This document shows, piece after piece, positions 13,611 through 61,690 of a DNA stretch of 64,000 bases; positions within the stretch are counted from its first letter, which is position 1, and every line of letters begins with the position of its first letter. Location of the stretch: positions 35,960,001 through 36,024,000 of the forward strand of contig CM022670.1 of NCBI GenBank assembly GCA_012295275.1, given 5' to 3'. The position numbers and the translations under genes are program-made. The notes beneath the pieces are model-generated. The model made no database searches. It was not told the DNA's origin and saw only the letters and a list, made by a program, of their open reading frames with translations. This DNA is from Chrysomallon squamiferum. Lineage: Eukaryota; Animalia; Mollusca.

Positions 13611-13778
13611 AAAAAAACAAAGTATTGATGACTGTTTGTACTATTACAAAAACGTTGACTGTTCTTGTTTGTAAACTGTATAAACATTTAACTAATAATG
13701 TAAATATTTGTTAATACTAAACCAAAATATCACCTCCCTCAAAAAAAAAAAATTTTTTTTTTTTTAAAAATCAGTGAA

Positions 13779-13834
<56 letters not shown>

Positions 13835-13856
13835 CAATAATAATAATAATAATAAA

Positions 13857-16666
13857 ATGGAAAAATTCAGAACAATGGGGAAAATAATTGTAATACTGTC
13901 AAAAGACGGTCGGAGAAGAGGCGCGAACTTGCAGTGTCTGGATAACAACGCGAACGTCAACGGGAAACACAACACCAGACAATGCAAGATAAAAAGTCTC
14001 CAAGGAGCCGGCCCTACCAGACAAGAAGTCATGGAGGCGTTTCTCGTCATGCCGGACATTAACGAAGACAGGCCGTACGACTGTCGAAAGCGAAAATCAA
14101 AAACTACGAAAGCGAAACTACACAGGACTCGATCAGATGACAAAGACGCGATAGACAGCTCTAAGCTGATGGTATCAAGAGCCTTCTCTAAAGGAAGCGA
14201 GCTCGACGACCTTCTAATAAATCTGCCGGACGAGGCAAAAGCAGAGCTGATACGGTCGATCTCTAAAAAGGACCTTCTTGAGGATGTCCTGTTGGATGAA
14301 GTGCTCAATGATTCGCCAAGGCCGTGGATGGTAGACTTGAATGACTCGCTGAAGAAAAGTATGAGCTCTGAGTTCTTCCAGCAAGAGTTACAAAAAGTTA
14401 TCTATGCATACAGAGAAGAAAGAGTGAGTACTTTGTTGTGTGTAGTAGATATGTACATCTGTGCATCAATAGAAACAGCTCATTTGTATGAATTCCAGTC
14501 CGTGTGTTGTTAATGATTGTCTTATGCGTTTTGCAGGTAGTGGATCGATTTAAAAAGAAGGCCAAAACTGTTATTAATATGCTGAGATTAGTTTCCACTC
14601 TGCGGTAATTACTTTTTTGTATTATACATCTTATATATCCGTCAATGTATGTATGAATGTATCTTTGTATATATGTATGCATATAACGTATGTAAATTTG
14701 TACGAATGTATATTTGTATGAATATATGTTTGTATATATGTATGTATACAACGTATGTAAGTTTGTACGAATGTATATTAGTATGTATGTATGAATGTGT
14801 ATATGTATATATGTATGTATAATATGTGTATGAGTAATCTATGAATATCTATGTATATTTGTCGTGCGTAAGTATTTTTGTATCTGTGTCACTATGTACG
14901 TGCGTATCAATGCAGATGCATATTAGTTAACTATCAGAAATGAATCTAATAAAATACTGTGACTTCAGACAAAGGCAGCGTCCGGTGGAGAAAAACTGGA
15001 AGTTTTTACCGTGGACACTCTTGTACGATCACCTGGGCTTGCACAGAAGAGAATACGAAAACCTTGGCCTGACCTTTGACCCTACCGAATTCAAACTGAA
15101 CAGAGAGGTATGCAAGGATTTCGTAAAGTTGTATCTGCATATTCACTGAATTAAAACTTTACCTTCTAATTCGGCTATTGCTTTTATATATATATATAAT
15201 ACTTTTATCTTCAAATTAAATTGTTACTAATTATCATACGTTACTTTGTCTTTAAACTGGATGGTTACCAATAACATTTAAGCTATTTACCTTCACAAGC
15301 GACTATTATTAATAATTTGTGTAATATTTTACCTCAAAATTCGTTTTGAATTCAGAGTCGTATAAGTAACGAAGCTAAGAAGATTCTTTGCATGGAACCG
15401 ACTGAACGGTCTGAAGAAGACCGCCATGTCGCCATGACATCATTGCAGCAGACAGTGGAAGCGTTCTGTGAATTCCCCCTGAAGATGCAGGAATCGTTAG
15501 TTAGAGTCGGCTGGTATGAACAGTAAGTAAAATTCAGATGTTTGCTGACGTAACATAAATATTCCATTCCAAAAAGCTCATCACTGTGCGTGGGAAAGTA
15601 CATTTTAAGTACTGCTAAGACAAACGACACACCACACAAACACACATACACACACATATATTATTACGTTTGTACATTTAGATATCTGTGTGCGTATGTG
15701 TGTGAGAGAGAGAGAGTTTATAAATATATGTATTTAGGTATAATGTACATACGAGTAAAAATACATACACTTATATGAAAATATTTGGTATAGTTTTTTA
15801 TATTTAATTCGTTTTTTCAAAGTGGTACCATGTAATACCTGAAATAGAATGATGATAAAAAAATGAATGGCTGATGGAATTATTAAGTTATATATATCTA
15901 AATATAGGATTGTTCTTCATTAATTAAATATTTTATTTTGAAAATTGAATGGTTTACAAATAAACAAATAATAAATAAATGAAATAACGTTGTGACGCAA
16001 AACCATCGGAATGTCTTCCTGGTATCAAATTATCAAGTATCTGCCTTAAACTCACAGATTATCAGAACTGACTCATGTGTGTTATGTGGATCTTCGGTTT
16101 AGAGTTATTTTATTTGTTTAGATTTGAAGGAGGCCGAGTTATCATTCGTCAAGGACATATCGCTGACAACTTTTACATGATTTTATCAGGGACAGGTAAG
16201 TGTTTTATCCCGAGAGAAGGCTTACCTTGAATTTTTGTGTTGATTTTATTTACCACTGCATTAGGATATACCGTTAAATACGCATATTCGTGCTGTTAAA
16301 TCTGCAAACAGAATGAATAACGTTATGCTTCAAATGAGGCTTTATTTTGAGACAAAATAAAATAATTATTAATCTTAATAAAGCGCTTTGTCTTGCCCAT
16401 CATTTTTAAAACGCGGTGTGCAGTCATTGTGGTGAAACACAGTTTTTACAATGTAACGGGCTTAATGACAATGAAAACAAGCACAGATCAGCGAAATGTA
16501 AGGAAATAAATATGTGTATGCTTCAGCTATTTCTGCTAAGATTTTTTGATGTTGTTGTTAATGATTTTAGCTGTTGTCACGATACTGAACACTGACAAAG
16601 TGACCGGTGAACAATACGTGCACACTGCAAATATCCTAGAGAAGGGATACTGCTTTGGGGTAATTA

Positions 16667-16748
<82 letters not shown>

Positions 16749-17008
16749 GACTTCTTTCTTTTTGTTACTCGTTTTCTCTCTCTGTCTCCCTCTTTTCCTT
16801 TTTCTGTGTCTCTTTCTATTTCTCTCAGTTTTAATATTATCATCTATTAAACAAGTCATGTTTTTTTTTAACTTCTACCTATAAAGCATTCATATAAATT
16901 TATTTTCTTTTTTAATATTTATCTTGTTCTTTTGTTTTCTTTTGTTTTTATTTGTTTGTTTATTTCGTTTTATTTTTTTTTTCTTGTTTTATTATTATTA
17001 TTATTATG

Positions 17009-17047
<39 letters not shown>

Positions 17048-17730
17048 AGTATTCGTATTATTTCGTTTTGTCTTGTTGTTTGGATGTTATTATTATTATT
17101 ATTATAATTTACCTGTGTTATCAGGAACTGGCTCTGATGCACCAAGCTAAGCGGAGTGCTACGGTCACGTGTCGAGGAAGCGTGGAGCTACTAGCTGTAG
17201 GCAGAGAGGATTTCATTGATATATTCATGAAAGCCGAACAAGGCAAAATTCCAGAACATCTGCTCTTTTTACGCAATTTGGAAATTTTGCGTGGCTGGCC
17301 GACAGAAATTGTACCTCATAACAATCCCAAAGCTTGTATTTTTCTGTATGTAAGGTAAACCGATCCACATTTGAGCGTGTGTTTTTTTTGTATAAGAGAA
17401 AGAGATGTACACGTTTTCCAATAGCGGACCTATATTTTGGTGGGCCCTGAAGCTTGAAATGTTATGGGGTCCTTTACAAGCACTTTTAGCTTATTCAGTG
17501 GCTTGTTTCATGACAGATAACCATAATTTGTTTTTTAATTTTACCTTGGTATCTCAGTTTTGCATTAAAATGTTTAAGCTTCTGGAGTTTCTGTGGGTTT
17601 AGGAATCCTCAGTGTCAGACACACACACACACACACACACACGCACGCACGCACGCACGCACGCACGCGCTTATATATATATATACACATTCATATATGT
17701 ATACGTATACGTTTATATACATACATATAT

Positions 17731-17812
<82 letters not shown>

Positions 17813-20800
17813 TGTTATTTGCACTATCAAACCAAAATACAGTAATAACTACTACGTTAAATAAATATCATATTACGTTGACCGTAATATTGTTAATTAG
17901 ATATCTTTTTATTAATCATTTTGTGAAATATGATTCTGAATAATGTTCTTTAATGAAATAGGATTTGGAAAAGACAAAATTAATAAAATTATATTAACTA
18001 TTATTCATTGTTATAAGACACTATAAACGTATTCAGTATTGAAAAAGTCATTATTATTGACCAATTTATTAATGTTATTAACCTCTAGCTAACAAACAAT
18101 GATTTCAGCACACCGAAGTAAATTTGGTCTAATTCGTCAAGAATTACGTTGATCTGTTATTTTTTTTTTTTTTTTACAGACGTGACTATGTGCTATGCAA
18201 AGACAGTAACGATTCAGACTGGATTTACTTCATCATGACTGGATCATGTCGCGTTCTCAAGTCTCTACATTCGGTTAAACCATCCATTCGCAAATCAAAG
18301 TCCTTCCAGTCCAGATCTACTTCATCAAGTTGGTGTAAACTTATTAAATTAACTAAAAACAATAATGAGAATAATATTATAAAAATGATAACGAAGAGAA
18401 ATTTCCTGTAGTATTTCTCAGAAATTAGAGTACTTTATTTCCGTCTCTGTGTAACTAAGTATGAATGGTCTGGAGATTGCTGATAGAGCTATAGCCTGAG
18501 AAGGTATTGGACGCTGGATCAATCCTTCTCAAAGCTCCGACTCATGTATTTCTCGTTCCAGTCAAATCTCGAATAGTGTTTTTTCTGTTTGCGGGAAGAT
18601 ACATAAAAGATTCCTTGCTTTTATTAATCAGTGATACGAGTCCAAAGAGTTGCAGTTTCCTCTCTCATAAAACAGCTATGAACATTCTTAATATCTCATG
18701 TTTAAGATATAATAACTATTAAAATTATGTTGAATTGTCGCATCTTCTTTAACTGCAGTTGTGTCTTTAAACCTGTTTGTTTTATGACTTTGGATGTCGT
18801 TTATAGATTCTTTTAGAAAGGTTTAAAACACTGAACTTGTCATATATAAAGTTTCAGGAACGCGATTAAGTGATGTCGACTCAAACACAACATCACAAAG
18901 TTCTAGTCCAACGACGTTAACGTATCAGATACCGAAAAAAGCACGACGTCATGGCATTGTGATATCGGTACCTGTGACGACAGAGATAAAACGATCTCGG
19001 TCTATTCCTGTAGTTAAAATGCGAACAGAAGAAGAACGTGAGTATTAGCTTCTTTGACACTGAAAAGAATCAGGAGACAGTATAAATAAATTAGACGTGT
19101 ATTAGCTTTAGATGTCCTATTAATTCTGAAACAATTTGAATTCAGTAAATTCCATTACTGATTGTCTATTAATTGTTGAAAAAAAAAACAAAAAAAAACA
19201 ACAAACCTAAAACAATCTGAATGTATGGAAATTTCTCTGATAACACCATTTCACTCTCATGTTTTCAATGAAATTTTCTTTCTCATTTAGTGCGTCTTGA
19301 AGTTCAGGAACATTATGAAAAACTGAACAATGTCCATAACAGACTGCATCCCAAACTGTCGACGGTGGATCACAAGAAAGTTCTGGACGCTGTGTTCGAC
19401 GAGAGACGACTTCTTCCTCCAGTAAGTGGACGTCAGGTATGTATGACCAAGACGTGTTGCGACTCTGTCATCACGAAACTACTGTGTCCTACAAACAGAC
19501 GTTGTATCATTTCAAAAATTTCTTCTGAATTAGTTAATGGATCTTGTGTAACGACTGAGTTCTTTGACCCTCAGATGTAAGCACTGTAAACAGTTTATAC
19601 ATTTAGACAGGTTCAAATAAATCTAACTGATACGAGTTGACGTTAGCATATTTGTGGTAGAGACAGACAGAAACCTTCTAAACATAACCAACGGATAACT
19701 AGAGTTTTTACAAATACAATGAGAAGTTGTATCCGTAACCACAGTTCTTTGGCTCATCTTAAAGAATATAGTATGTTCGTCAATAAATGACCCAGAAACA
19801 GAAACATAATATTATTATTTCTGTTCGTTTTGTCAGTCCATGTGTTCAAGTTACTGCATTCTTGTTGTAGCCAAAAATTGCTCTGCCAGAACTCAAAATC
19901 CCATACATTAGTCTCATTAAATCTCATTCTGTTACGATTTCAACCAGTGAGGTCTAACGCACAGAACTTTATTTCTGAAATATTTAATATTAATGTTTTA
20001 AAATTTAAAAGTAACACTGATGTCACGGTGACTAGCCTAAGTAGCATAAATCCCTAAAATTTTGGGCTGTCCTGTCTAAAGGGCGGCAGACTATAATGGC
20101 GTCACGTGACAAGGTGTTAATGATCTGAGACAGCTTAAACTACTAAATGACTATTCTGTATCCACTAGAGAACCGTAACGCAAACAAAAATTGTATATAG
20201 GTAATTGTTTTTTATATAAATATTTCACATAAATTAACCATCATTGGTAACATATAATGTAATCGTACGATTCGACGATACACTATAAAAGCAATTAGCG
20301 TTGATTGATAATACTAAACTAATTAAGGCCAATTGGTTACCTTAACTTTCTAACTTATCTTTTAGTTATTAATATACGTTATCTTAGTTTTTAAGCGTAA
20401 GTACGTACCACAGAATAACACAATAAAGTATCCAACAGTAGTATCAATCAGCATATATGTTACATACAAAAACAATTTAAACCATAATTACCATTGCCTC
20501 AGTGATCCTTTGTCTTGCGCAGACGGCCCTCAGACAACGTGTCGGAAGAAGGCGCACCAATCAAACGATCTCGTTTAAAACGCCTCTGCAGACAGCCTGT
20601 CTGAATTTACTTTGCAACTTTAATTTTGAGTTTGTTAATCCCAGTGTTTCTTAGTTGATAAAATTCCCCTAATTATGTAATACAGCTTCTAAACAGCCCA
20701 TGGACGTCTGCATACACTCTGCTATTTAGCTTTTGTGTATTTATCCCCATTTTCTGACATTAATTAGGTAAACATTTAATAACTGTAAAAAATATGAATT

Positions 20801-28332: not shown

Positions 28333-39724
<11,392 letters not shown>

Positions 39725-41125
39725 GATTATATTTCTGAAAATAACAATTTAAAAAAAAAGATAATAATTCAGTTAAAACAAACACTTTCTATAATAATAC
39801 TACTACTGTGGTTTAATTATTACTGTCTCAGTATCTGTAACATTATTATTGTTGTTTTCGTTGTTGTTGTTGTTGTTGTTTCGTCAGTGTAATTTCCAGT
39901 TCCAACCTGTGATTAACAGCGTTTATATTAAAAGCCGTGGTTTATATGTTCCAGTGTACGGTGCAGTTTGTATAAAAGAAAAATTCCTGTTGATCGGTAA
40001 AGTTTGATATGTAATGACAGTTAATAATAAAATGTCATTAGTCATGTATTTTATTTTATTTTATAATTTTATTATTACAATTATTATTATTGTTGTTGTT
40101 GTTGTTGTTGTTGTTATCGTTGTTGTTGTTGTTATTATTATTATTATTGTTGTTGTTCTTGCTGTTGTTATTGTTATTGTTGTTATCGTTGTTGTTGTTG
40201 TTGTTATCGTTATCGTTGTTGTTACACTAGTGTGCATTAGGCCTTTAAGAGTTAATTACATGAATTACCGCAATAAAGACTTTAAAATTTTATGAATAAT
40301 TTTATAAACAATTTACCCTTAAAGTCAGAAAGAAACTGCACACAATCTCACACAGCGCACATTTAAACACTGTTTTCTTTTGATAGCATTTAGGCTAATT
40401 TTCAGCAATTTATATTCCGTAGTTACGTACGATTAGTGAAAAGTCAGTAATATTTCGGTAACACTATAATCCGTTGAACTCTTGATAAGCTTACTTAGCT
40501 TCTAAATTCACGTGTAAGAATTACTTTTAACTAAACGTTAGCTGTGGTTAGAATTAATCTACACATACACGTAAATAAACAAAGAAAGAAAAGAAAAACG
40601 AACGATATTAATGTTGTATTAAAGTGAATGTTTCACCATTTTGAATTTCCTGTTTTCAGTTTAGCTAAATAAATTACCCATCTGTATTAATAACAATGTA
40701 ACGTGAAAGTGTAAAAATATTTAACATATTTATTCTACATTTTTCGAAATGGTGTTTACATTTAAAATTTTGAAATCATCTTTTGATACTGGTAGACCAC
40801 ACCAGTAAAAACATCGCAGACACAACCATACGGAAACTGAAAATTTATATTAAAATATAATTTTTACATAAAACCTGATTAACCAAACGATTCACAACTT
40901 TGCTAATTTATATATAGATGATGAATACATACTGGTAAGAATTAGTGAAGGATTGGCAAAAATGGTTGAATCATTTATCACATCTTATGTATTTTTACAT
41001 TATTATTTTGGGGTACCGTTTTCATTTTACGCTCATATTATATTTTATTATCAGCAAAGTGTTGTTTCTTAAATACAACTATCAGCTGAATGGATGTTCT
41101 AATGTATATTTTTTTAATATATATA

Positions 41126-45700: not shown

Positions 45701-48700
45701 TTAATACTTTCGTTCTTAATGTGTAAGAACAGTGTGCCGAGGTACACGTATGTTTAAATTATTACTTCAAGATCAGGGTGTAGTTCTGCTCCTGCAGAAT
45801 TCTGAACACAGTGAGTTGGCCACAATCTCTGTTCGGTAAGAGGAGGTCCTTTAAACACCACAGTATCTCCAATGTTAAAACCATTACTGGATACCTGAAA
45901 AGCAAAAAAGATATATACCGTATATACTTGTGTTATTATGGTATGTTCGTGCAAGTTACAGCTCGTGCAAGTTATGTTATAGTAGGTGTATAATGTAGGC
46001 CTTCGTGGCACTGTCACACTGGTCTAAAGATAGTGACAGTGCCTGGAATCTACAGTCGACTTATACACAAGTAATACCTTAAATGACGCAATTTTTGGTC
46101 TTAAAATACACATTGACTTATACATAAGGTCGCCTTGTACACAAGTATATATGGTATATATAAAAAGAAGATAATAGAAAAAAGTTCTCTTTTTGTCAGT
46201 GAGTAAAATATATTTCTATTTAAGTATATTATGTGCATGATAAAATGCAATCAAATAATGCCATATGTGATAAATTTAAACTATCATTCGGGGTTTGTTT
46301 ACTTTCTGTTTGATTGAACAGAAGATTGTACAAAGTTGTTGAAAAGAAATCAGAGATAATATTTGATAATGCAGAAATTCATGGTTTTGAATTAAATTAA
46401 TTTTAGTATAAATAATTTAATTTTACTGGAATATACATACATGTATATTATCATCAGTATCAAAAAGTTCTTAATATTAAAATATATCTTTATGCTAGAC
46501 AATCCAGTATATATAAAAATAAAATTTGTATTTAATATTACTCACAATACAACATTAACAATCTAAAAGAGTTGTAGAGATAATTTATAATTAGTTATAT
46601 ATTAACTGCATTAATCTTAAAATTTAAATGGCTTTTTCATTTGTTCTAACTATAACAAAGTAGTTGCTTGGGTGTTCTTTTTTCAACACATGATTATTAA
46701 CAACTGACAAAAAGTAATAAATATTCAGAAATAATGTTAATCTAATTCAAGCATAACATTTAAGTAAATGTGAGGTGAAATATTTTGAGGAATTAACATA
46801 TGTAAATAATAAATCTCAAAATAGTCCATTAAATATTAATACCAAACATTAAATTTACTTTCTATTTCCAATAACTACAGATAAAATGAACGAGAAGCAT
46901 GTTGGTCTACCATGTTGCTTAATTATTAACTGAATTTTGTGCTAAGGTAAACATATAGTTTAATTTTTTTTTTTCATCAGTTTAAAATTAACTTCCACAA
47001 ACCTTTGACGTTTGGTCTAGTAGTCTTAAATTTACATTTTCTATAAATGAAATATGGTTACTTCCACAAACCTTTGACGTTTGGTCTAGTGGTCTTAAAT
47101 TTACATTTTCTATAAATGAAATATGGTTCTGAGGATGCCAGTCCTTTGAATAAACCACCACATCAAATGGAATTTCTTCCAGCATTTTGTTAATGACTGG
47201 AACCACGTCATAACCATCATGCCCTGCTGGGTAATCTTTAAGAGCAAGACTTCCACTAATGAAGTCGTTTTGAACGTCCACTATCAGCAGAGCTGTGATG
47301 GGATTCAGAACCTGAGGAACAGATAAATGTGCTCAAAACTGAAATCATAAATCAAACTAAATCTATACCAAATCAACAACAATACACAAAATACATTTCT
47401 GAATAAAAACACAAGTTAAATGTATGCATGAAAAGAGAAAGGCAGAAGAAGGAAGAATGAAAAGCAACAGTACCTGATCTACTGACATGGTTAAAAATTC
47501 TCTGGACTGAATTATGTGGAAATATAAAAATTAAATACTAATTTTGATGACAGCCAGACAATCAATAAAAAGATCAGAACAAGATATATTAAGAAAATCT
47601 ACATTAAATTTGTATTTTACTTGTAAATTTATAGACCATTTCATTACAGTCATTGTGTTATTTATTGTACAGTATCTACTACAGTTTAAAAAAAAAAATA
47701 AACATTATTCAATAACAAATGGTCTTTTTCACATGACAATCAGCTAGGACAATTATTATAAAAAAGATTATCCATAAAAAATAAAATAAATTATCACCAT
47801 ATGATCCACTACTAGGAGGCAACCATTTTACAATAGGGCCTTTTTTCCTGTTATAATACAAGTCAGTTTAAAACTAAGAATACAAAGATAAAGTAAAACC
47901 ATACATATTTCAGCCAGTACTTCCATGACTTGCTGAATTCTGAACTGCTCAGTTTGCTATCCTGAAAAAGAGTTTTAAAAAATTAATAAATAAACAATAA
48001 AAAAAAAACAATTCATATTGTACTAAAATAAAATAACTTATTATGAAAAATCAGGCTATTAATGTTTAATTTTTGATGACAAAAACTTAGAAACTTTGAC
48101 TGAGTTATGGAGGGAAAATATCTTTATTTGCTTGTATATAAAGAATCAGTTATGGAAAGTGAAAAGCAGATAACTTAGAAACAAAAGACTGGCATAAAAC
48201 GGTTATTTTTTAATTTTAACATTAATTATGTGTGGTTATGGGTGTATTTATTTATTGGTATTAATAGGTACTGAATATGGTCTGTCCTAAGAAATTATTA
48301 TTTGTCTTTCAGTATTGTTCTCAACAAGGTTAAAATTATCTGCCTGTTTACACTGGTCTAGCTTTGTAATGAGAGCAACCTTTGATAAGAAAATAAAAGG
48401 AAAAAATAATTTCAAGAGTATTTGTATGGGGCAGGCAGTTTTACAGTTAAAATGTAAATTACTAAATGAGAATGCTGTTCTTTAAAAATGTATTACAAAT
48501 TCCATGCTAGTACCATTTAATTGAGTTTCAGGTACAGAATTTGATAGAAGATACAATTCCATGTCTCTATAAGTTACAAAATATTAAACTGTGTGACAGA
48601 ATAAGTTGCTCTGACCATTCTATTAAAAGTATAATCGATAAAATATGTTTTGCCAAATAAAAAAATGTTATAAAATCAAATACTGGATAATCAGCTATTC

Positions 48701-51824: not shown

Positions 51825-52969
51825 ATGGCTGTGTCCAAACAAAGATGTGTGATTCTGAGTGAAGAGCTTGAACAGGAGCTTACTTGCACTGTGTGTTTTG
51901 AATTCTTTGAAAACCCTGTACTTCTACCTTGTAGTCACAGCTTCTGCAAAAAGTGTATTGATGTAAGATTTTAGCTTTTTTTAAGTATGTGTGTCTGTCT
52001 GTCAGTGTATGTGTATACATGTACATGGATGAAAATCACTGGGACCTCTAAAGATTCAGTGAAAAATTATTTCTTTTACTTTAATTTTATCTTTTTCATT
52101 TTGAAACCCAAACAGTCTATTAAATCTCAATGTGTCTGTGGTTGTACATGTGAGTGTAGCATCTACAACATGCACAGATACACAGCTTAGTTAACACGGC
52201 TTTTCTATGATTTATTTTTTGTATGTGAACATTAATGTATTGGTAGATAAGAGAATGAAATAAGAAAAAGAAGTTATTTAAAATGTTCAAGTTTAGTTCA
52301 AACCAAAAACAAGATGTAACTTTCAGCTGTTTATTTTATTATTCCTAGAGTGTTATAGAAAACTGTTCATCTCCTGTTCACTCATTTGACTGTCCATTGT
52401 GCAGAAAATTTATTAAAGTGAAAAGTCAGACAAAGGCTGATGACTTCCCCAAAAATCTTGCTCTGGGGAATCTTGTTAAGCTTCACACTGAAAAAGATGA
52501 CATGTTTCCAGATGAACTCTTCAAAGCTGACCTTCCGGATCTTGTTATTGACCGAAGTTGCCCAGAACATGGGAAACCCATGAGTATCTATTGCTATACA
52601 TGTGCTCATGCAGTGTGTGAAGAATGTTTGAAGGTGCAGCCTTGTTCAAAACACAAATCAAAAAAACTACAAGACTACTGCTCAATTCTGTTGGTGAGTT
52701 TTGATTAACCAGATTTAAAAAAATTAATGTATATATATAATATATATTGTTTTTGTGAGTTTATAAATAGTATTTCAGTATTTTTAGGTGTACTAGCAAC
52801 AAATGAGTTATTATATACTGAACCAGTAGTGTGATTTGTGAAACTTATTGAAGAATGTTTCAAACAGCTATTTATGTTCTTTAAGCAAACAGTACATACT
52901 ATTCCATTATTCATCAAAATAGCATTTAAAAAAAACAATAATAATAATAATAATAACAAAAAAAAAAAA

Positions 52970-53001
<32 letters not shown>

Positions 53002-53294
53002 AAAAAAGCACACACATTGCATCTGAGGAAAACATGAAAATAAATGTTAAGTCTTTACTTATAGCAGTGACAGAACCGAGTTACAACTGAATATCCAGAG
53101 TACTGTATCACATTATTATGATCTGGAGTCATATCTGCTTTAATCGAAATTCAGATTTGTACTGTTAAAATGACAATGATCACCGTGAAGATGTTAAGTG
53201 AAATTATTTATGTAATAAGGGTAATGTGTTAATGTGTTCTGAATGGGTAGGCTGGAAAAAGCATGCATCCAAACACAAATTCACACACACACAT

Positions 53295-53358
<64 letters not shown>

Positions 53359-54017
53359 TTAATATTATTATTATTATTGTTATTAATATTATTATATTAA
53401 TGATTTCAGAAACATATAATCACTGACATCCCTAAATTAAAAGATCTGTGTCATCGTCTGGAAGAAAATAATGGCATGCTGAATGTGTTTCTAAGTGATT
53501 TGGATGTAAGATGTTAATTTTTATTTTTTTTTTTTTTTACCGACTGAATAAATTGTTAATGTACAAGAGCACTGAAACAGTTATAATATTTTATTAATAG
53601 TAAAAATAGATCTCCCTCAATCACACTTTTATTTTAATACAGAGAACTAATTTCTTGTAACTTTTAACATTAAAATTATGTGTGTGTGTAAAATGGAAAT
53701 GTATAGAAAGATGGAAAGAAAGAAAAATAGATGGTAATTTTTCTTTTTCAGAAACATGAAGAACATCTGCAGGCTACTGTGAAATCTGAATTTGAAGCGC
53801 TTGTTACAGAGCTTAACAAGAAATGTGATCAAATGTCATCAGTAATCAAAATGAAATATGCAAGTCAAAGGCTTCATTGGAAAGAACAAAAAAAACGTTA
53901 CACACTCACTGTTTCAGAAATGAGAGATGTCACTGATGCTGTCAGAATGGCAATTAAAGAAGAAAAAGCAAGCTGTGTGTTAATGGTAGAAATCAATAAT
54001 ACTGCTTATGCAAGAAC

Positions 54018-54073
<56 letters not shown>

Positions 54074-54450
54074 ATGACTGCATATAATTAGTCTTAACAT
54101 AAATTAGATTGTGCTTTCTTTTTCATTGACAAATTATTTAAACTTTGTAATTTCACAATTTAAGAAAGCGCAAAAAGGTAGGAAAATGGATATTTTATAC
54201 AATAAATGTTTTAATTTTAAATGTTTTATAATTATTTTTATTATTTATTTTTTTATATTCATTGTTTTTTTTATTATTATTATCTGGGTTTTTTTGTTAA
54301 TCTTGCAGCTTCTAAAAAGTTGTCAAAAAAGAATGAAAGCCTTAAAGTCACCCCCCAAAAATAAAAATTATGAAAAAGTTCATGACATACCAAAATGGAA
54401 ATTACATCAGGAAGTCTATGCTGCTATCAAAGAAATCTCATTAAAAGAAG
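51825..54450 (+). CDS. TRIM RBCC module (C3HC4 RING, B-box2, coiled coil, COS-like linker)
   Basis: [28 protein letters not shown]...FDCPLCR; [11 protein letters not shown]; [23 protein letters not shown]...CSKH. The 96-nt and 234-nt phase-0 coiled-coil exons are the sizes typical of TRIM genes. No SPRY, NHL or FN3 domain follows. Confidence 0.93.
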
Positions 54451-57400
54451 GTCATTTTTATTATTATTTTGTTTTTTTTAGTTTTTATTTATTCTGTCTT
54501 CTCTTGAAATTTAATGCAGTTTTCAAATGCAATTTTTGAACTGTTGATGTTCTCTGATCTTATCTGAATAGTCCTTAACCAAATGCCTGCTACAGCATGG
54601 CCAGAACCTAAAATACATTCATTTCAGTTTATCATTAAATAAAGCCTTTCTTTCATTCATTCCTTTTTAAAATAATCAGCATGCATTACTTGAAAACTTC
54701 TTGTAATCTGAACTAAAGAGTGGAAGTAAAGCTGAAATAATTTTGTTGTATTTGTTCATTTTTGTTTTTGCTTGTATAATTAAAGAAAAATATTTATAAT
54801 CATAATATTATTTTTCAAACTGACTTCCTCCTCCCCGTTTCTTATTATTTAGTAAATAGTAGATTAATATATTTGAATTCCTGTGCATTCAGAAGACATG
54901 TATGATGAACCAGAGAAAAGAGCTCAGCAACTGCCAGATCTGTTTTTGGATCGAAAGCTCCTGGAGGTGGAAGTGAGTGTTTCAACACTGTATGAATACC
55001 TACTTTAGAAAAAACTTATCACAAACATTATTTATTTATTTATTTATTACATATATATTAAGTAATAATTTCTAAATCTCCTTTGTAAGATTAAAACAGT
55101 TATTAAAGTTACACGAGATGATGTTAACTAATAGTTGTATTTTTGTTTTGTTTTACAAGCAAATTTTTCTTTGTTTGTGAACATTTTAATTATTGCAATT
55201 ACTTGATGATTATTTTATGACTTTATAATCAGCTGTCCTTTCAATCTGTTTACATCAAAAACTCAGCTTATTTACATTTAATTAGGTTTTATTTAATTAT
55301 TTATTTATTTTATTTTATTGTTTATTTATTAAATCATTATTTAAACTGAAACTTTTGCACTTTTCATCAACGGGTACAGTGTACAGGTATAATTTAATTC
55401 CTTAATAAAGATAAATTTTACAGTATTCGTTATTGATGTTGTTTTAAATTAACTTCATGACTTTAATGTTTGACAGGTATCTGATTCTTTCCAGATAACC
55501 ATAATAATTTCATAAATATCATTTCTAAAACATTGTCTTTTAATTAGAGAAACATCAGACCTCTGAATCTAAATTTGGAATATTTAATGATCACACAGAA
55601 GTGATTTGCTTTTCTGATATTATTTAATGCAAGATTAAGCAAATATTTGCCAAACAGAAATATTTTTTAATTATTTCTCCTATGTACATGTGAATAAATC
55701 TGTTTTGTATAAAATGTTCTGCAATGACAAAGGTTGTTACACTTTTTCAGGTGCTTTTGGTACAAATAATATAAGTTGGTACTTATGTTAGAAGTATTTA
55801 AGTTTATTTTTCTATGTTTGCAGCAACATTTGGTTCTTCTACACCGTTTGGACAAAGTGAGTGAAACATCATAACCTCTTAATTAATGAGCTGAGGAATA
55901 CAAAATATATCAAGATGTAAAACAACTACTGCTGTCAAGTTTCTACCATCTTTCAGGACATAATGCACATAAATTGAGTACTAAAATATATATCTACATT
56001 CTTGATAATACCGAGGTCAGTTATAAACCACTAAAATAAATTGTTTTTGAGATTCACTACTGATTTACATTAAACAAAACACATTTATCTTTTTCTGTGT
56101 AAAGGCAGTAGTACATTTGGTGCAAAGCCAACTCCTGCATTTGGATCTTCGACTCCAGCCACAGGTGGATTGTTTGGCGCTTCCTCAACAGGTACAGGTG
56201 GATTGTTTGGTCAGACACAGACCACATCAACATTTGGCCAATCTTCCAACTTAAGTAAGGGAAATTGTTTATAGCGTACATTATGGATACTGATTATTAT
56301 ATGTATATGTATTATCTGCTCTTTGGTTGTTATATTTCATTACTTCATTAATCAAAAATTACATTTCTGACATTTGTCATGCATGGCTGTCTTTATAAAA
56401 AATAAAAAACAAAAAAGCCAAAAAATACTCCATAACTGGTAAGATTGGTCCAAAGAAAATATTATTTTCTTGTGGTCTGTAAATAAATGGAACTAAATTT
56501 ACTAATCCTGTTGTTTAACACTGTTTTGTTTCCAGCCCCTGTAATTTAGATGAATAAATTGTGATTATAACATGTAAATATCATTATAATGGTTTTGATT
56601 TTTGTTCTATATGGAATGAACAGTATTATTACTCACACAAATTCTTGTGAAATAAAAATTCATGGTTCAGTCAGTATTTTATTCTTATGTTTAAAGCGTT
56701 TTTGTGTTATTGTGAAAATACATATGGTTATTTTTTACATTTGCAGTATTTGAAAATAGTGTGTTAGAACTGTTGCTTTACTTTTATTGTATTTTCAGCA
56801 TTGAATTATTGTGATTGTATTGTTGATGAAATATTTCTTTATATTATCTTATTTCACTTGCAGCATTTGGAAGTACATGTAATAGAAGTATTACTTTGTT
56901 ATTTTATTAATATCATTATCAAATGGTTGTGATTATATTGCTGAGGAAGTATTTATATTATTTCACTTGTAGCATTTGGAAGTACACCAGCTAGTACTGC
57001 AGGAGGAAGTTTGTTTGGAACACAGACTCCTTCAGGAGGTTTGTTCTCAACTCCTGCCAGTTCTGCTTTTGGGTCAAAACCTGCTGGATTTGGAAGTGAG
57101 TGTTTCAACACAAAACATCTTTTTTTTTTTTTTTTTTTTTTATACAATGTGCCTACTTTTAAAAAATAACTTTACATAGATGTATTTTAAAAAAAAAAAA
57201 TTTTTTTTTTTTTTTTTTTTTTGATAAATTGTCTTGATTTATAAATATTCATAAAATATTTTTGGATACTTAACAAGTTGTTAATGCTACTCAAGAAGAA
57301 GTGAAATTTAGTATAAAATTAATAAATACATTTTATTTTTAATTCTTTTATGGTTGATATTTATTATATAAGATAAAATGTATTTTAATACAAAACTGAA

Positions 57401-60317
57401 AGTTATGATGTGTGGTTAAAAACGTAATAATTGCTTATTAACTTATTTCACCTTCATTTACTTTTTAGCAGGTTTTGGTATAGCAACATCCACAGCCTCT
57501 GGTGGACTTTTCAGTCAGACTCCAGCCCAGTCTACAGTATTTGGCCAGTCAAGACCAGGTATACCTGTAAAAAAATTCTTGTTTGTGAACATTTTAATTA
57601 TTCCAGTTACTTGATGATTATTTTAAGACATTTTAAATTAGATGTCCTTTAAATCTGTTTAGTTAAAAAACTCAGTCAGCTAGTAAGTTGTGTTCAATTT
57701 AGAATTTACTAGATTTAAATTCATAACACATAAACATGTTTCGTGTAATTTGGGTTTTATTTTTATTTTTTTATTTTTATTTATATCATTATTTTAACTG
57801 AATTTTTTGCATTGGTTCTCTGAATGACTTTTTATATATTTTGTTCCTAGTATTTGGAGCTGCTACAACACAGAATGGAACAACAGTCAAATTCAATCCC
57901 CCTCCTGGAGAAGACACAATGATGATAAATGGCAGCTCAACAAGCATACAAACAAGACATCAGTGTATTACTGCTATGAAAGAATATGAAAACAAAAGTT
58001 TAGAGGTAACTGTTTAATAGTAAATTTGTTCTTTAACCTCTTTTCAGATTTTTTACATTCTTATTTTAAGTAAATATGTAGTTACATAATGTAATTTTGT
58101 TATTAGGAACTTCGTGTGGAGGACTATTTATCCAACAGGAAAGGAAAACAAGATGGAACAGCAGGAGGTCTGTTTGGATCTACTTCAGCTTTCACTTTTG
58201 GTAGAGGTATAAAATGAATTACTTAATGAGTATTTACATGTAATTTGGGTTTTATTTATTTATTTATTTATTTTTAAAATCATTATTTAAACTGTATTTT
58301 TTGCATTGGTTCTATGGATGATTTTTTATGTATTTTGTTTCTAGTATTTGGAGATGCTACCACACAGAATATGTTAACTGTACATGTGAATAAATCTTGT
58401 TTTGTATAAAAATTTCTCAAATGATGAAGTCTGTTACACTTTTTCAGGTGCCCTTGGTACAAATACGTCTACTAGTACAGGTGGACCGTTTTGTCAGCCT
58501 GCCCAGACAGGGCAGACAGGTGGACTGTTTGGTTCAAGCAAGCCTCTGTTTGGCAACACCTCAACCAGTACAGGAACAGCCTTTGGATTTGGAGCCAGCA
58601 CAAGCCAGACAAGTTCTCTGTTTGGACAGACTCCTGCAGCAAAGGTAAAAATAACACATACTATTTATGATTTTATTTTTTTATTGAATTTTAAAATGAA
58701 GAAGCACTTCAAAGGTAAAATTAAAAGAAATTGTCATTGTTTATCATTTTAGTCTATTCACCTATATTGTTTTGTTGGTTGAAGTGTCATGCAGAATTTT
58801 AAACTTCTTTAATTACTTATTTTATTTTTTTCAATACTGTTTTTTTTTTTTTTGACAGTCTTTAATCAAACCCCATTGATAGATTAAAATAAATGTACAT
58901 ATTTACTAATGATATAATAAAATAAATTTACCTTTGTTCTTAGTAATTATTTTTTGATACAAAGTTGTTCAGTTGCCTTTAACCCAGGTAAATATTCATC
59001 TGTTTTCTGTTAAAGCCCTCACTGTTCGGTACCACACCAGCTGCTTCAACACAACCTTCTTTGTTTGGTACCAACACATCAACATTTGGCCAGTCAGGAG
59101 GATTTGGAACCACTGGGTTTGAAACCCAAAAAACTGTAAGTACACCTTTTAGCTAAATCAAATACTGTTTTGATATGATTTTTTTTTTACACTTAATGAT
59201 CACACAGAGATGAAAAAGATTTTCTGATATTATTATCATAAAGAAATTAAAGAAGAAGAAAAAATGTTCCAGTCTTTTCAGATGATTTTCTTATACTTTT
59301 ATTTAATTGTTTTTTCTTTTTCAGTCTGGTGATCTTTATGGAAGTAAACCTACTGGTTTTGACAAAGCCACGACAACAGCATCTACTGGATTTGGTTTTG
59401 GTACAGGCAGTAATTTGTTAGCTAAACTAGTGTCATCTACATCAACCTTAGGAATTGCAACTACTACTCCATCCTTTGGAGGTTAGTTAAAATAATTATT
59501 GTGATATCTTAGTGATGTAATAATCAAGATTATTAAATTATTAGAAATACCATAATCCAGACGTAATTGTCAAAAAATGTAATGCTGTTGCAGCTATGAG
59601 AAATAAATGATAATCATCTAACAAATAAATTTAAATAAAAAAAAGAATTAAGCAACTATTTGCCAAACAGAAATATTTGTACATGTGAATAAATCTGTTT
59701 TGTATGAATTTTTCTGCAGTGACATAAGTTGCTACACGTTTACAGGTGCTTTTGGTACAAATACTTCTACTAGTACAGGTGGACTGTTTGGTCAGCCTGC
59801 CCAGTCTGGGCAGACAGGTGGACTGTTTGGTTCAAGCAAGCCTCTGTTTGGCAACACCTCAACCAGTACAGGAACAGCCTTTGGATTTGGAGCCAGCACA
59901 AACCAGACAAGTTCTCTGTTTGGACAGACTCCTGCAGCAAAGGTAAAAATAACAAACTATATTACTGTTTCACATTTTATTTTTTTATTGAATTGTAAAA
60001 TGTAATATTTTTCTTAGTAATTATTTTTTTAATACACAATTGTGCAGTCGCCTTTAGCCGTGGTAAATATTCATCTGTTTTCTATTAAAGCCCTAACTGT
60101 TCAGTGCTATACCAGCTTCTTCAACACAACCTTCTAAATTAAATACTGTTTTGATATGACTTTTTTCGCATTTAATGATGCCACAGAAATGAAACAGCTT
60201 TTCTGATATTATTTAATGCAATATTAAGCGAATATGTTGTTAATAATTAAGAAATTAGAGAAGAAATAATAATAAAAATATCTGTATATTCTTCATCTTT
60301 TCAGATGATTTTCTTAT

Positions 60318-60362
<45 letters not shown>

Positions 60363-61690
60363 GTATTTGTTTATCCAAAATAGGTAGGTTTTTGCATGCT
60401 TGATATCTTGTGAATGAATCTTAAACTTTACTTGCACACACAGAAAAATGACAAAATCTAAATACATATTTCTCAAAATTTATATCAGAATTTAAGATTT
60501 AAACTAAATTAAAAACTTTTTATATTATGTATCAAACAGAGTTGTATATTAATTTCAATTCTATAATTCATTGATTTAAAATGATGTTGACCCCTTTTTG
60601 TATATAACATTTAAACAATACTGTTGATGTTTTCAAAAAATATTTACAAAATATCAATAATTTAATCATCTTTCAGGTTGTTTTCTTAAGAATATTCAAC
60701 TCGGTTGAAAGGCCTGAGAATAGAAACTGTAGTAGTTAACCTGACAATACTCTAATGCATTTAACCTTATCATAGGACATGTTATATTTCTTCTAATTTT
60801 TCAGAAAGTGCATATTAAAGTTTTATCATCCGTTTGGCCTTCAACCATATAAAGTAGATATGACACCATTTAACTAGCTTAAAGATGTGTTTTTACTAAG
60901 GAAAATGTTTTTTTATTTTTTTAACTACATTTTTAGTTTTGATAAAACTGTTACTTTGTCTCCTATCTTTATCAGCAAGACCTCAAATCCAAGACTGGAA
61001 TTAGAACTACTTCATCAACAAGTAAGGTATGTGATGAATGGTATTTTGTGTATGTAGAAATATTTTCAAAGGACTGAAACATCAGTACAAAATACACATT
61101 GACCCTTAATGTATGTATGAGCGATTTTTTCTGTGTGATATATATATATGGAAACTGACTGTTAGAGGGATCATCAGAAAATAAAATTATTTAAAGTAGA
61201 AAATAAAATGAATTAAAGCTGAAAATATTTGATCAGTTGCAAAATATCTGAGTTAATCCAGAATTGTTGTTTATTGAACTTATGATATAGTAATGGTGGA
61301 TGCTGTTTTAAATTGTAGGAAATATTTACATTTATTTTAATTTGCAATACAACTAAAAAAACCATTTTTATTAGATTCAAAGTTCAGTCTTAATATAAAT
61401 AACAAATAATTATACATTTTAATCAAATCTTGTTTTAGGTATGTCCAACCAGTATGTTACCATTTGCTTCAGCAGTGACTGCTACTACTACTACTACTAC
61501 TACTCCTGCTACTACTATTACTACTACTACTACTACTACTACTACAAACTTTGTAAAAATAGATCCGTTTGATTCCTCATCAGACACTTCAGTAAGTTCA
61601 GAGGAGAATGGTCAATCAGCAAACCCAGAAATATGTCCTACTTCAAACAGATCGAAATCAAATTCAGATACTGATGATGAAGAATGGTAG
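51825..61690 (+). CDS. Chimeric TRIM (RING-Bbox2-coiled coil) / Nup98-derived FG-GLEBS protein (~859 aa in the model that skips exon 54893-54972)
   Basis: Exons 51825-51962, 52349-52693, 53410-53505, 53752-53985, 54309-54450 (phase 1), then 55824-55856, 56105-56254, 56973-57095, 57469-57558, 57851-58005, 58107-58206, 58448-58644, 59016-59135, 59325-59481, 59746-59942, 60976-61026, 61439-61690 (TAG). Total 2580 nt, all GT-AG, no internal stops. Probable non-coding 5' exons end at about 50993 (C|gtaagt) and span about 51244-51271. Joining the two halves in one mRNA is inferred. Confidence 0.72.
55824..59942 (+). CDS. NUP98: Nup98-derived FG/GLFG repeat exons with GLEBS motif (partial Nup98 copy)
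   Basis: About 35 FG dipeptides (6 GLFG) in S/T/G/A/Q spacers. GLEBS at 57851-58005 plus 58107-58206: [55 protein letters not shown], closely matching the Nup98 GLEBS consensus. No native Nup98 start exon, autoproteolytic domain or Nup96 seen. Confidence 0.92.
60091..60140 (+). pseudogene. Decayed duplicate of FG exon 59016-59135
   Basis: Same acceptor context (taaag|CCC), but TCA>TAA at codon 2 and the 3' half including the donor is deleted. Confidence 0.8.

What the first reader, a model, noticed from the sequence alone, without database searches (positions are those of the whole stretch)
54893..54972. Chimeric junction exon is one base short of joining the TRIM and Nup98 frames
Seen: an 80-nt exon (cattcag| ... 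GGAA|gtgagt). Its 5' half continues the TRIM frame (EDMYDEPEK). Its 3' half plus donor, 54924-54988, is 54/65 identical to the end of Nup98 exon 56973-57095 and reads [16 protein letters not shown] in the Nup98 frame. One extra A in the AAAA run at 54916-54919 gives a clean 81-nt phase 1-1 exon, [27 protein letters not shown]. As assembled, inclusion frameshifts to a stop at 56254, and donor read-through gives a short RBCC-only protein ending LYEYLL*. Inference: this is the physical fusion breakpoint, and the missing base is a homopolymer error, a null allele, or a splice switch between full-length and truncated TRIM.
Basis: partly seen in the sequence, partly recalled or inferred. Interest (0 to 1): 0.72.

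Follow-up and report, generated by a model that had tools for sequence, protein, structure and literature searches.

The report
Leftover exon fragment in TRIM–Nup98 gene
This genome carries a TRIM-type ubiquitin-ligase gene joined to a partial copy of the nuclear-pore gene Nup98, and the "one base short" junction exon is most likely a decayed fragment of a duplicated exon that the working transcript would skip, so no missing base is needed to make the fusion protein.

Summary
54893-54972 is an 80-nt AG...GT segment. Its last 49 nt plus 16 intron nt copy the end of FG exon 56973-57095 (54/65 identical). Inclusion gives a stop at 56252-56254.

The RBCC exon ending at 54450 (phase 1) joins the FG exon starting at 55824 (phase 1) directly. 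Skipping the 80-nt segment gives an uninterrupted 858-codon frame over 17 canonical-splice exons: RING, B-box, coiled-coil region, FG repeats, GLEBS, more FG repeats and a Ser/Thr-acidic tail. A Gigantopelta aegis protein model (XP_041359532, 1030 aa) has the same RBCC-GLEBS layout and no equivalent of this segment.

The Nup98-like half of the segment is one of at least five partial exon copies in the locus. It lies at the head of a collinear decayed block (54923-55768) and shows a neutral-looking substitution pattern. Its "TRIM-frame" half is no more open than chance (44 of 81 neighbouring AG sites do as well), and AAAA runs are common.

Best reading: a frame-breaking pseudo-exon, predicted to be skipped. 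If included, it is predicted to trigger nonsense-mediated mRNA decay (NMD). No read or cDNA data could be obtained, so inclusion and the A4/A5 question remain untested.

The parts
51825..51962 (+). E1: start codon and first half of the RING finger (phase 0 end)
   Evidence: Pfam RING families, best 1.2e-09; tblastn with P0001 gives 63% identity; boundaries
52349..52693 (+). E2: second half of the RING finger plus the B-box
   Evidence: Pfam zf-B_box 4.9e-07; 54% identical to Gigantopelta P0001, E 2e-31
53410..53505 (+). E3: start of the coiled-coil region
   Evidence: Canonical ag|..|gtaaga sites, phase 0-0; collinear with P0001 in blastp
53752..53985 (+). E4: coiled-coil region
   Evidence: tblastn with P0001 residues 195-272, 29.5% identity, E 1e-07
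54309..54450 (+). E5: last RBCC exon. It ends in phase 1 with the weak donor AAG|gtcatt
   Evidence: homology to P0001 runs to its last codon; leave-one-out donor score 2.4
54893..54972 (+). The finding: an 80-nt frame-breaking pseudo-exon. 54893-54922 is unique sequence; 54923-54972 is a copy of the 3' end of exon X3
   Evidence: Acceptor score is 2.6, in the low range of the real ones; donor score is 9.0
54923..55768 (+). Decayed, collinear partial duplicate of 57046-59763 (X3 end plus donor, intron pieces, first 18 nt of the X7/X10 exon)
   Evidence: blastn segments at 79-88% identity in collinear order; families D6, D12, D17, D19
55814..55816 (+). ATG in frame with X1, 9 nt upstream of its acceptor. 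It is a possible internal start for a 543-aa FG/GLEBS-only product
   Evidence: the only MF..FG peptide in six frames of the window
55824..55856 (+). X1: 33-nt FG exon, phase 1-1. It is the predicted partner of E5
   Evidence: by eye 9 of 11 residues match P0025 residues 16-26 (sequence)
56105..56254 (+). X2: FG exon, phase 1-1
   Evidence: tblastn with P0025 residues 26-78, 78% identity; boundaries
56973..57095 (+). X3: FG exon, phase 1-1. It is the source of the copied half of the finding
   Evidence: 82% identity to P0025 residues 72-116
57472..57558 (+). X4: FG exon, phase 1-1
   Evidence: 83% identity to P0025 residues 117-145
57851..58005 (+). X5: GLEBS exon
   Evidence: Pfam Nup98_GLEBS 7.5e-18, 64.8 bits; PDB Nup98 GLEBS chains at about 2e-17; 86.5% identity to P0025
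58107..58206 (+). X6: end of GLEBS plus an FG motif
58448..58644 (+). X7: FG exon (one motif degenerate, GGPFCQ)
   Evidence: 189/197 identical to X10
59016..59135 (+). X8: FG exon
59325..59481 (+). X9: FG-derived exon with several lost FG motifs
   Evidence: compared with the P0025 sequence
59746..59942 (+). X10: tandem duplicate of X7
   Evidence: (family D3)
60080..60135 (+). Decayed copy of X8 with an immediate stop codon
60976..61026 (+). X11: putative 51-nt exon, the least certain of the model
   Evidence: Canonical sites, phase 0-0; no homology support
61439..61690 (+). X12: putative last exon, a Thr-rich and acidic Ser-rich tail ending in a stop
   Evidence: low-complexity similarity to the P0001 tail
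56864..56880 (+). Partial copy of the X3 acceptor and its first 14 nt
58344..58370 (+). Partial copy of the X5 acceptor and its first 26 nt
   Evidence: (family D7)

Best explanation
The 80-nt segment 54893-54972 is a chimeric pseudo-exon whose last 50 nt and donor are a decayed copy of the end of FG exon 56973-57095, and it is likely skipped in the productive mRNA. The last RBCC exon (ending at 54450) joins the FG exon at 55824 in frame without it, giving a predicted 858-aa RING/B-box/coiled-coil-FG-GLEBS-FG protein. Shown: the copy relationship; the phases; the open 17-exon frame; the stop at 56252-56254 on inclusion; and the same domain order in a Gigantopelta protein model. Inferred: the segment arose as part of a secondary partial duplication of the Nup98-derived block into the E5-X1 intron. 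It evolves neutrally. If the splicing machinery does include it (its splice signals are usable), the transcript would carry a premature stop more than 50 nt upstream of later junctions and would be an NMD substrate. No extra A is needed.
For: (1) Frame arithmetic: E5 ends in phase 1 and X1-X4 are all phase 1-1. E1-E5 plus X1-X12 gives 858 codons with no stop. Adding the segment gives a stop after 405 residues, at 56252-56254.
(2) Homologue: window exon E2 has one close relative among 1.84 billion representatives, Gigantopelta P0001 (E 6e-32). P0001 carries RING plus Nup98_GLEBS. The spliced model aligns with it collinearly over 1-832, at 30% identity and E 4e-94. Its three isoforms do not differ at the RBCC/Nup98 junction. 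Its Nup98-derived part aligns from the start of the X3 equivalent, with nothing like EDMYDEPEK.
(3) The copied half belongs to a collinear decayed block, 54923-55768, matching 57046-59763. It is one of at least five partial exon copies in the locus.
(4) There is no sign of selection on the copy. All 11 differences fall in 49 exonic nt (78% identity), against 16/16 in the intron part. Seven of 16 codons change residue, and the final FG motif is lost (counted by hand).
(5) The 5' half and the A-run are chance-level features.
(6) The Nup98-derived part is a truncated paralogue. It matches Gigantopelta canonical Nup98-96 (P0025) only over residues about 16-401, and no later canonical exon was found in the window; canonical exon 1 (15 residues, probably too short for tblastn) was sought only by the peptide scan.
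Against: Splice signals do not exclude use. The acceptor score of 2.6 lies within the range of the 16 model acceptors (-0.5 to 13.5; 4 of 16 score 2.7 or less), and the donor is as strong as X3's. The 16/16 identity of the donor flank could mean the donor is kept by selection. E5's own donor is weak (gtcatt). The model exons X11 and X12 and the E5-X1 junction are predictions. P0001 is, from its XP_ accession (my knowledge of NCBI naming), a computed model whose transcript support I could not see. The phase match at the E5-X1 junction alone has a one-in-three chance expectation.
Confidence: 0.58

Rival explanations
1. The segment is a used, regulated poison or switch exon. Inclusion or donor read-through would give an RBCC-only product or an NMD-degraded transcript. 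Skipping would give the full RBCC-FG-GLEBS protein, so the exon would tune the amount of fusion protein.
For: Usable acceptor and strong donor. Perfect conservation of 16 intron bases after the donor while the exon part has diverged. Inclusion gives a premature stop well upstream of later junctions. Read-through ends at 55008, with ATTAAA at 55090 and 55102.
Against: There is no transcript evidence. The Gigantopelta isoforms show no alternative event at this junction. 73 AG sites in the locus score at least as well as this acceptor. Sixteen identical bases in a young duplicate is weak evidence of selection. Poly(A)-like hexamers are expected by chance in 29% G+C DNA.
Confidence: 0.14
2. There is no fusion protein here. 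The TRIM gene would end at or near the segment as an RBCC-only gene or a dying gene. The FG/GLEBS exons would be a separate gene starting at ATG 55814 (543 codons), or an untranscribed partial Nup98 duplicate.
For: The in-frame ATG at 55814 is the only MF..FG start in the window. E5 has a weak donor. FG motifs are degenerate in X7-X9, and X8 has a dead copy. The frame break is real if the segment is constitutively included.
Against: The closest relative of the RBCC part is itself an RBCC-GLEBS protein with the same order. About 540 codons of Nup98-derived sequence at roughly 15-25% protein divergence from canonical keep every splice site and have no stop or frameshift. No canonical Nup98 first exon was found by the peptide scan (it is too short for the tblastn). 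Only 1.4 kb separates E5 from X1, and the phases match.
Confidence: 0.14
3. The assembly, or this allele, lacks one A. The true sequence would have five A at 54916-54919, and the segment would be a genuine 81-nt phase 1-1 coding exon.
For: Arithmetic only: one extra base would put the TRIM-frame half and the FG-frame half in one frame.
Against: A junction formed at random is out of frame two times in three, so being 'one short' needs no explanation. AAAA runs are in 27% of 30-nt bins. The copied half shows no coding constraint. The homologue has no such exon. The fusion is in frame without it. Four-base homopolymers are (from my general knowledge) rarely miscalled in polished assemblies.
Confidence: 0.07

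Closest known systems
Gigantopelta aegis XP_041359532 and its isoforms, named 'nuclear pore complex protein DDB_G0274915-like' (P0001-P0003)
   Same: RING, B-box, coiled-coil region, then Nup98-derived sequence with a GLEBS motif, then a Ser/Thr-rich tail. It aligns collinearly with the window's model and is the only close relative found.
   Different: Its Nup98-derived part is far more diverged: GLEBS scores 28 bits against 65 bits here, and almost no FG motifs remain. It seems to start at the X3 equivalent, without X1 or X2. It has no counterpart of the 80-nt segment. The RBCC is only 30-63% identical per exon. Whether it is an orthologue or a paralogue is unknown.
Canonical Nup98-Nup96 precursor (for example Gigantopelta P0025, 1819 aa)
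   Same: Exons X1-X9 match residues about 16-401 at 62-87% identity per exon, including GLFG-type repeats and GLEBS.
   Different: There is no first coding exon, no autoproteolytic domain and no Nup96 part in the window. Several FG motifs are lost in X7-X9. An internal tandem duplication is present (X7/X10). RBCC exons lie upstream.
TRIM5-cyclophilin A (TRIMCyp) of owl monkeys and macaques (recalled; papers seen only as listings and abstracts)
   Same: An RBCC ubiquitin-ligase scaffold whose usual C-terminal recognition domain is replaced by a captured piece of a host protein that viruses bind.
   Different: CypA entered by retrotransposition, so it has no introns. Here the Nup98 part keeps its introns, so the capture was a DNA-level segmental duplication. 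Antiviral function here is a conjecture.
Somatic NUP98 fusion oncoproteins in leukaemia (abstracts)
   Same: They use the same N-terminal FG/GLEBS portion of Nup98 as a module.
   Different: In those fusions Nup98 is the N-terminal partner and the event is somatic. Here it is C-terminal to an RBCC and in the germline.
Poison exons and pseudo-exons (frame-breaking cassette exons coupled to NMD; general knowledge)
   Same: A short segment with AG and GT signals whose inclusion shifts the frame and gives a premature stop upstream of later junctions.
   Different: Neither inclusion nor regulation has been shown. The origin here is a partial exon duplication.

Membership tests
TRIM / RBCC proteins | N-terminal RING finger | tested here: met
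   Pfam RING families match E1 (best 1.2e-09), with the remaining ligands in E2. The Cys/His pattern reads intact in the translation.
TRIM / RBCC proteins | B-box zinc finger after the RING | tested here: met
   Pfam zf-B_box 4.9e-07, 30.2 bits against a cut-off of 24.1, on E2.
TRIM / RBCC proteins | Coiled-coil region after the B-box | not tested
   No coiled-coil predictor was run. E3-E5 align with the corresponding region of P0001.
Nup98-Nup96 precursor | FG/GLFG repeats flanking a GLEBS motif | tested here: met
   Pfam Nup98_GLEBS 7.5e-18 on X5. GLFG/FG motifs are read directly in X1-X10.
Nup98-Nup96 precursor | C-terminal autoproteolytic (peptidase S59) domain and Nup96 | tested here: not met
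   tblastn of P0025 (1819 aa) finds nothing beyond residue about 401 in the 64-kb window at E < 0.01. Sequence beyond 64000 was not available.
Nup98-Nup96 precursor | Own first coding exon with the conserved MF...FG start | tested here: inconclusive
   There is no match to the P0025 N-terminal 15 residues. The only MF..FG peptide is the ATG at 55814, abutting the X1 acceptor.
TRIMCyp-like captured-domain restriction factor | RBCC fused in one reading frame to a captured host-protein module | tested here: met
   858-codon open frame across E1-E5 and X1-X12. The same order is seen in P0001. Transcript not seen.
TRIMCyp-like captured-domain restriction factor | Capture by retrotransposition (intronless insert) | tested here: not met
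   The Nup98-derived part is split into at least 10 exons with canonical introns.
TRIMCyp-like captured-domain restriction factor | Restricts a virus through the captured module | not testable with these tools
   This needs infection or binding assays.
Poison (NMD-coupled) cassette exon | Length not divisible by 3, with a premature stop more than 50 nt upstream of a later exon junction | tested here: met
   The segment is 80 nt. The stop at 56252-56254 lies at the end of X2, with 10 model exons downstream.
Poison (NMD-coupled) cassette exon | Observed alternative inclusion in transcripts | not testable with these tools

The most novel reading that the evidence does not exclude
The locus encodes a germline TRIMCyp-like 'bait' restriction factor. 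An RBCC E3 ligase would display a copy of the Nup98 FG/GLEBS surface that many viruses dock on, so that a virus reaching for the nuclear pore/Rae1 site is caught and ubiquitinated. The bait would be repeatedly renewed by partial duplications of Nup98-derived exons. The 80-nt segment would be a relic of that turnover, co-opted as a poison exon that sets the ratio of full-length to RBCC-only product.
Probability: 0.1. Interest if true: 0.8.

Novelty: new variant of a known kind. Interest (0 to 1): 0.4.

Why it matters
The junction exon itself turns out to be ordinary: a decayed partial exon duplicate, with no need for a sequencing error or a null allele. What remains of interest is the gene around it. 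It is an intact-looking RBCC ubiquitin ligase whose C-terminal module is a captured N-terminal part of Nup98 (FG repeats plus a well-kept GLEBS motif). It has one diverged counterpart in another gastropod, and no description in four literature searches.

From memory, solved complexes of viral proteins with Rae1 and the Nup98 GLEBS exist; one search lists such chains, but gives only the Nup98 names. If so, a TRIM carrying this module is a natural candidate for a decoy-type antiviral factor outside vertebrates. The locus also shows how exon-phase symmetry (all phase 1-1) lets duplicated FG exons be added, lost or skipped without breaking the frame.

Tried and rejected
No whole genome is held for the window.
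(2) An independent copy of the segment with four or five A: a metagenome-contig scan found 0 matches.
(3) Alternative acceptors inside the segment (exon starts at 54916 or 54928) would restore the frame as 57- or 45-nt exons. Their acceptor scores are -10.6 and -3.2, so I rejected them as unlikely.
(4) More RBCC-GLEBS fusions:
- The HMMER search of 1.84 billion representatives gave 19 hits at E <= 0.001, and only P0001 is close.
- I scanned 10 of the other 18 with Pfam (those of 322 aa or more) and none has GLEBS. The eight shorter ones were not scanned.
- A word-index search with P0001 residues 1-470 returned only P0001 itself.
- The ESM Atlas gave only generic RING/B-box clusters.
(5) An earlier idea that ATG 55814 is the relic Nup98 start codon was weakened. 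Canonical P0025 has 15 further residues before the X1 equivalent, so the ATG may be a chance feature of the acceptor region. I kept it only as a possible internal start.
(6) The idea that the segment marks an ancestral mid-exon breakpoint shared with Gigantopelta was rejected. P0001 aligns from the start of the X3 equivalent (modest support, 6 of 300 shuffles).
(7) Earlier notes of this scan held nothing.
(8) Searches failed on wrong coordinates and were corrected.
Full report
**What is there**

The window is AT-rich eukaryotic DNA, 24-35% G+C in 2-kb steps. At 54893-54972 there is an 80-nt stretch bounded by cattcag| and |gtgagt.
- Read in the frame handed on by the preceding exon, it gives (E)[12 protein letters not shown]....
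- Read one base over, its 3' half gives [17 protein letters not shown].
- 54924-54988 is 54/65 identical to 57047-57111, the end of an FG-repeat exon plus the first 16 bases of its intron. The repeat finder reports the same pair (family D17, 83%).
- All 11 differences lie in the 49 exonic bases; the 16 intronic bases are identical.
- AAAA is at 54916-54919.
- With the stretch included, the first stop is at 56252-56254. Read-through of its donor ends at 55008 with ...LYEYLL*.

**The gene around it**

Stop-to-stop frames, splice-site reading and comparison with relatives give a + strand model.
- E1 51825-51962, E2 52349-52693, E3 53410-53505, E4 53752-53985 and E5 54309-54450 encode a RING, a B-box and a coiled-coil-type region. 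Pfam gives RING at 1e-09 and B-box at 5e-07.
- X1 55824-55856, X2 56105-56254, X3 56973-57095 and X4 57472-57558 are FG-repeat exons, all phase 1-1.
- X5 57851-58005 with X6 58107-58206 carries a GLEBS motif. Pfam Nup98_GLEBS scores 7.5e-18, and PDB Nup98 GLEBS chains match at about 2e-17.
- X7-X10 (58448-59942) are further FG exons.
- X11 60976-61026 and X12 61439-61690 are a tentative Ser/Thr-rich, acidic end.
- All 16 introns have AG/GT ends.

E5 ends in phase 1 and X1 begins in phase 1. Leaving the 80-nt stretch out therefore gives one uninterrupted frame of 858 codons across 17 exons. The two halves of the gene do not need the stretch, or an extra base, to be joined.

**Relatives**

- E2 has exactly one close relative in both large protein searches: Gigantopelta aegis XP_041359532, here P0001, 1030 aa. 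Identity is 54%, with E 2e-31 and 6e-32. In one search, 19 proteins had E <= 0.001 and only this one had E <= 1e-10.
- P0001 itself has RING plus Nup98_GLEBS. It aligns collinearly with the spliced model over residues 1-832 (30% identity, E 4e-94). So the RBCC-then-Nup98 order is not peculiar to this window.
- The three listed isoforms of that protein differ at the N-terminus and in two later cassettes, not at the RBCC/Nup98 junction.
- After the last RBCC residues, its sequence aligns with canonical Nup98 from about residue 75-79, the start of the X3 equivalent. Only 6 of 300 shuffles reach the score, so support is modest. Nothing in it resembles EDMYDEPEK.
- Of the other 18 hits, I scanned the 10 longest with Pfam; none has GLEBS.
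- The ESM Atlas gave only generic RING/B-box clusters.

**The Nup98-derived half is a truncated paralogue**

- The GLEBS exon finds canonical Nup98-Nup96 proteins: 412 with E <= 0.01 among 444 candidates.
- The best full-length one is Gigantopelta P0025 (1819 aa, 86% identity). It is listed with the same longest-contig length as P0001.
- tblastn of P0025 on the window matches X2-X10 to residues 26 to about 401, at 62-87% identity per exon. It finds nothing beyond that.
- X1 matches residues 16-26 by eye.
- The canonical first 15 residues have no counterpart. The only MF..FG peptide in six frames is an ATG at 55814, in frame and 9 nt upstream of the X1 acceptor.
- Several FG motifs are lost in X7-X9, compared with P0025.
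- About 540 codons nevertheless keep every splice site and have no stop. This argues that the frame is maintained.

**What the 80-nt stretch is**

- blastn of 54600-56100 against the downstream gene shows a collinear mosaic. 54923-54988, 55171-55266, 55269-55359, 55582-55646 and 55634-55768 match, in the same order, 57046-57111, 57579-57675, 57756-57811 (and 58231-58305), 60170-60235 (and 59193-59234), and 59647-59763 (and 58379-58465). Identities are 73-88%.
- So the copied half of the stretch is the head of a decayed partial duplicate of the FG/GLEBS block, lying in the E5-X1 intron.
- The locus holds further partial exon copies:
  - the X3 acceptor plus 14 nt at 56864;
  - the X5 acceptor plus 26 nt at 58344;
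  - the X7/X10 acceptor plus 18 nt at 55751;
  - a dead X8 copy at 60080;
  - the intact duplicate pair X7/X10 (189/197 identical).
- The copy in the stretch shows no coding constraint. Identity is 38/49 in the exon part, seven of 16 codons change residue, and the last FG becomes GG.
- It keeps ...KAPG..., as canonical P0025 does, where X3 now has ...KPAG.... It was therefore copied before X3 changed.
- The unique 5' half has no match elsewhere in the window apart from a 35-nt low-value hit.
- Its nine open codons are unremarkable: 44 of 81 AG sites in the neighbouring introns do as well.
- An AAAA run occurs in 573 of 2133 30-nt bins.
- A junction made at random is out of frame two times in three, so 'one base short' calls for no special cause.

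**Can it be spliced in?**

A weight matrix built from the model's own 16 acceptors and 16 donors gives the following.
- The stretch's acceptor scores 2.6. The real acceptors, scored leave-one-out, range from -0.5 to 13.5, and four of 16 score 2.7 or less.
- Its donor scores 9.0. It is the same nine bases as X3's donor, which is in the training set.
- 73 AG sites in the locus score at least as well as this acceptor.

The signals therefore neither single it out nor exclude it. If it is included, the stop at the end of X2 lies far upstream of later junctions. By the usual 50-nt rule (general knowledge), this predicts nonsense-mediated decay. Internal acceptors at 54916 or 54928 would restore the frame but score -10.6 and -3.2.

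**Verdict**

- The most likely account (about 0.58) is a frame-breaking pseudo-exon left by a partial duplication. It would be skipped in the productive E5>X1 transcript and harmless or NMD-bound when included.
- The rivals are a used, regulated poison or switch exon (0.14); separate TRIM and FG/GLEBS genes, or a dying fusion (0.14); and a missing A in the assembly or allele (0.07).
- None of these could be settled.

**Comparison and novelty**

- The gene works like a TRIM whose recognition domain has been replaced by a captured host module, as in TRIM5-CypA. That comparison is recalled from memory; one search showed only listings and abstracts. Here the captured part keeps its introns, so it came by DNA-level duplication, not retrotransposition.
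- It is not a Nup98-Nup96 precursor. The autoproteolytic domain and Nup96 are absent from the window.
- Four literature searches (listings and abstracts only) showed no description of a natural TRIM-Nup98 gene.
- The Gigantopelta counterpart exists only as a database model under a nucleoporin-like name.
- I rate the junction stretch itself as ordinary, and the gene as a new variant of a known kind.

Noticed in passing
window 46988-47332 (- strand): An isochorismatase/nicotinamidase-like exon (family named from the look of the translation; not tested with Pfam) ends in a tandem repeat of a 23-residue stretch, NHISFIENVNLR(P/L)LDQTSKVCGS, twice. This is another partial exon-end duplication, so such micro-duplications may be common in this genome.
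   Followed up: no
window 55814-55856: An ATG lies in frame 9 nt upstream of the X1 acceptor. It would start a 543-codon FG/GLEBS-only product (MFAATFG...), a possible internal-promoter isoform or a chance feature of the acceptor region.
   Followed up: partly
window 58380-59240 and 59647-60235: A tandem duplication of about 1.3 kb inside the gene. X7 and X10 are 189/197 identical, with 2 synonymous differences against 6 differences in residue-changing codons. The second X8 copy has an immediate stop.
   Followed up: partly
P0023 (Bradybaena similaris hypothetical protein, 893 aa): A land-snail protein model with two GLEBS-containing Nup98-like repeats followed by a coiled-coil-like region and a C1q domain (precomputed Pfam PF21240 plus PF00386). 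It may be another capture of the Nup98 N-terminal module in a gastropod, or an annotation chimera.
   Followed up: no
P0001 and P0025 (Gigantopelta aegis): The RBCC-GLEBS fusion protein and the canonical Nup98-Nup96 are both listed with the same longest-contig length (102,884,749 bases). They may lie on one chromosome; their distance apart is unknown.
   Followed up: no
window 13704-19580 (+ strand) and 39029-39748 (- strand): Long open frames of 269 and 239 residues, and several shorter exon-like frames of other genes. Many microsatellites are present, (GA)n, (CA)n and (TA)n, including inside introns of the TRIM-Nup98 gene (53270-53370, 54022-54070). None was examined.
   Followed up: no
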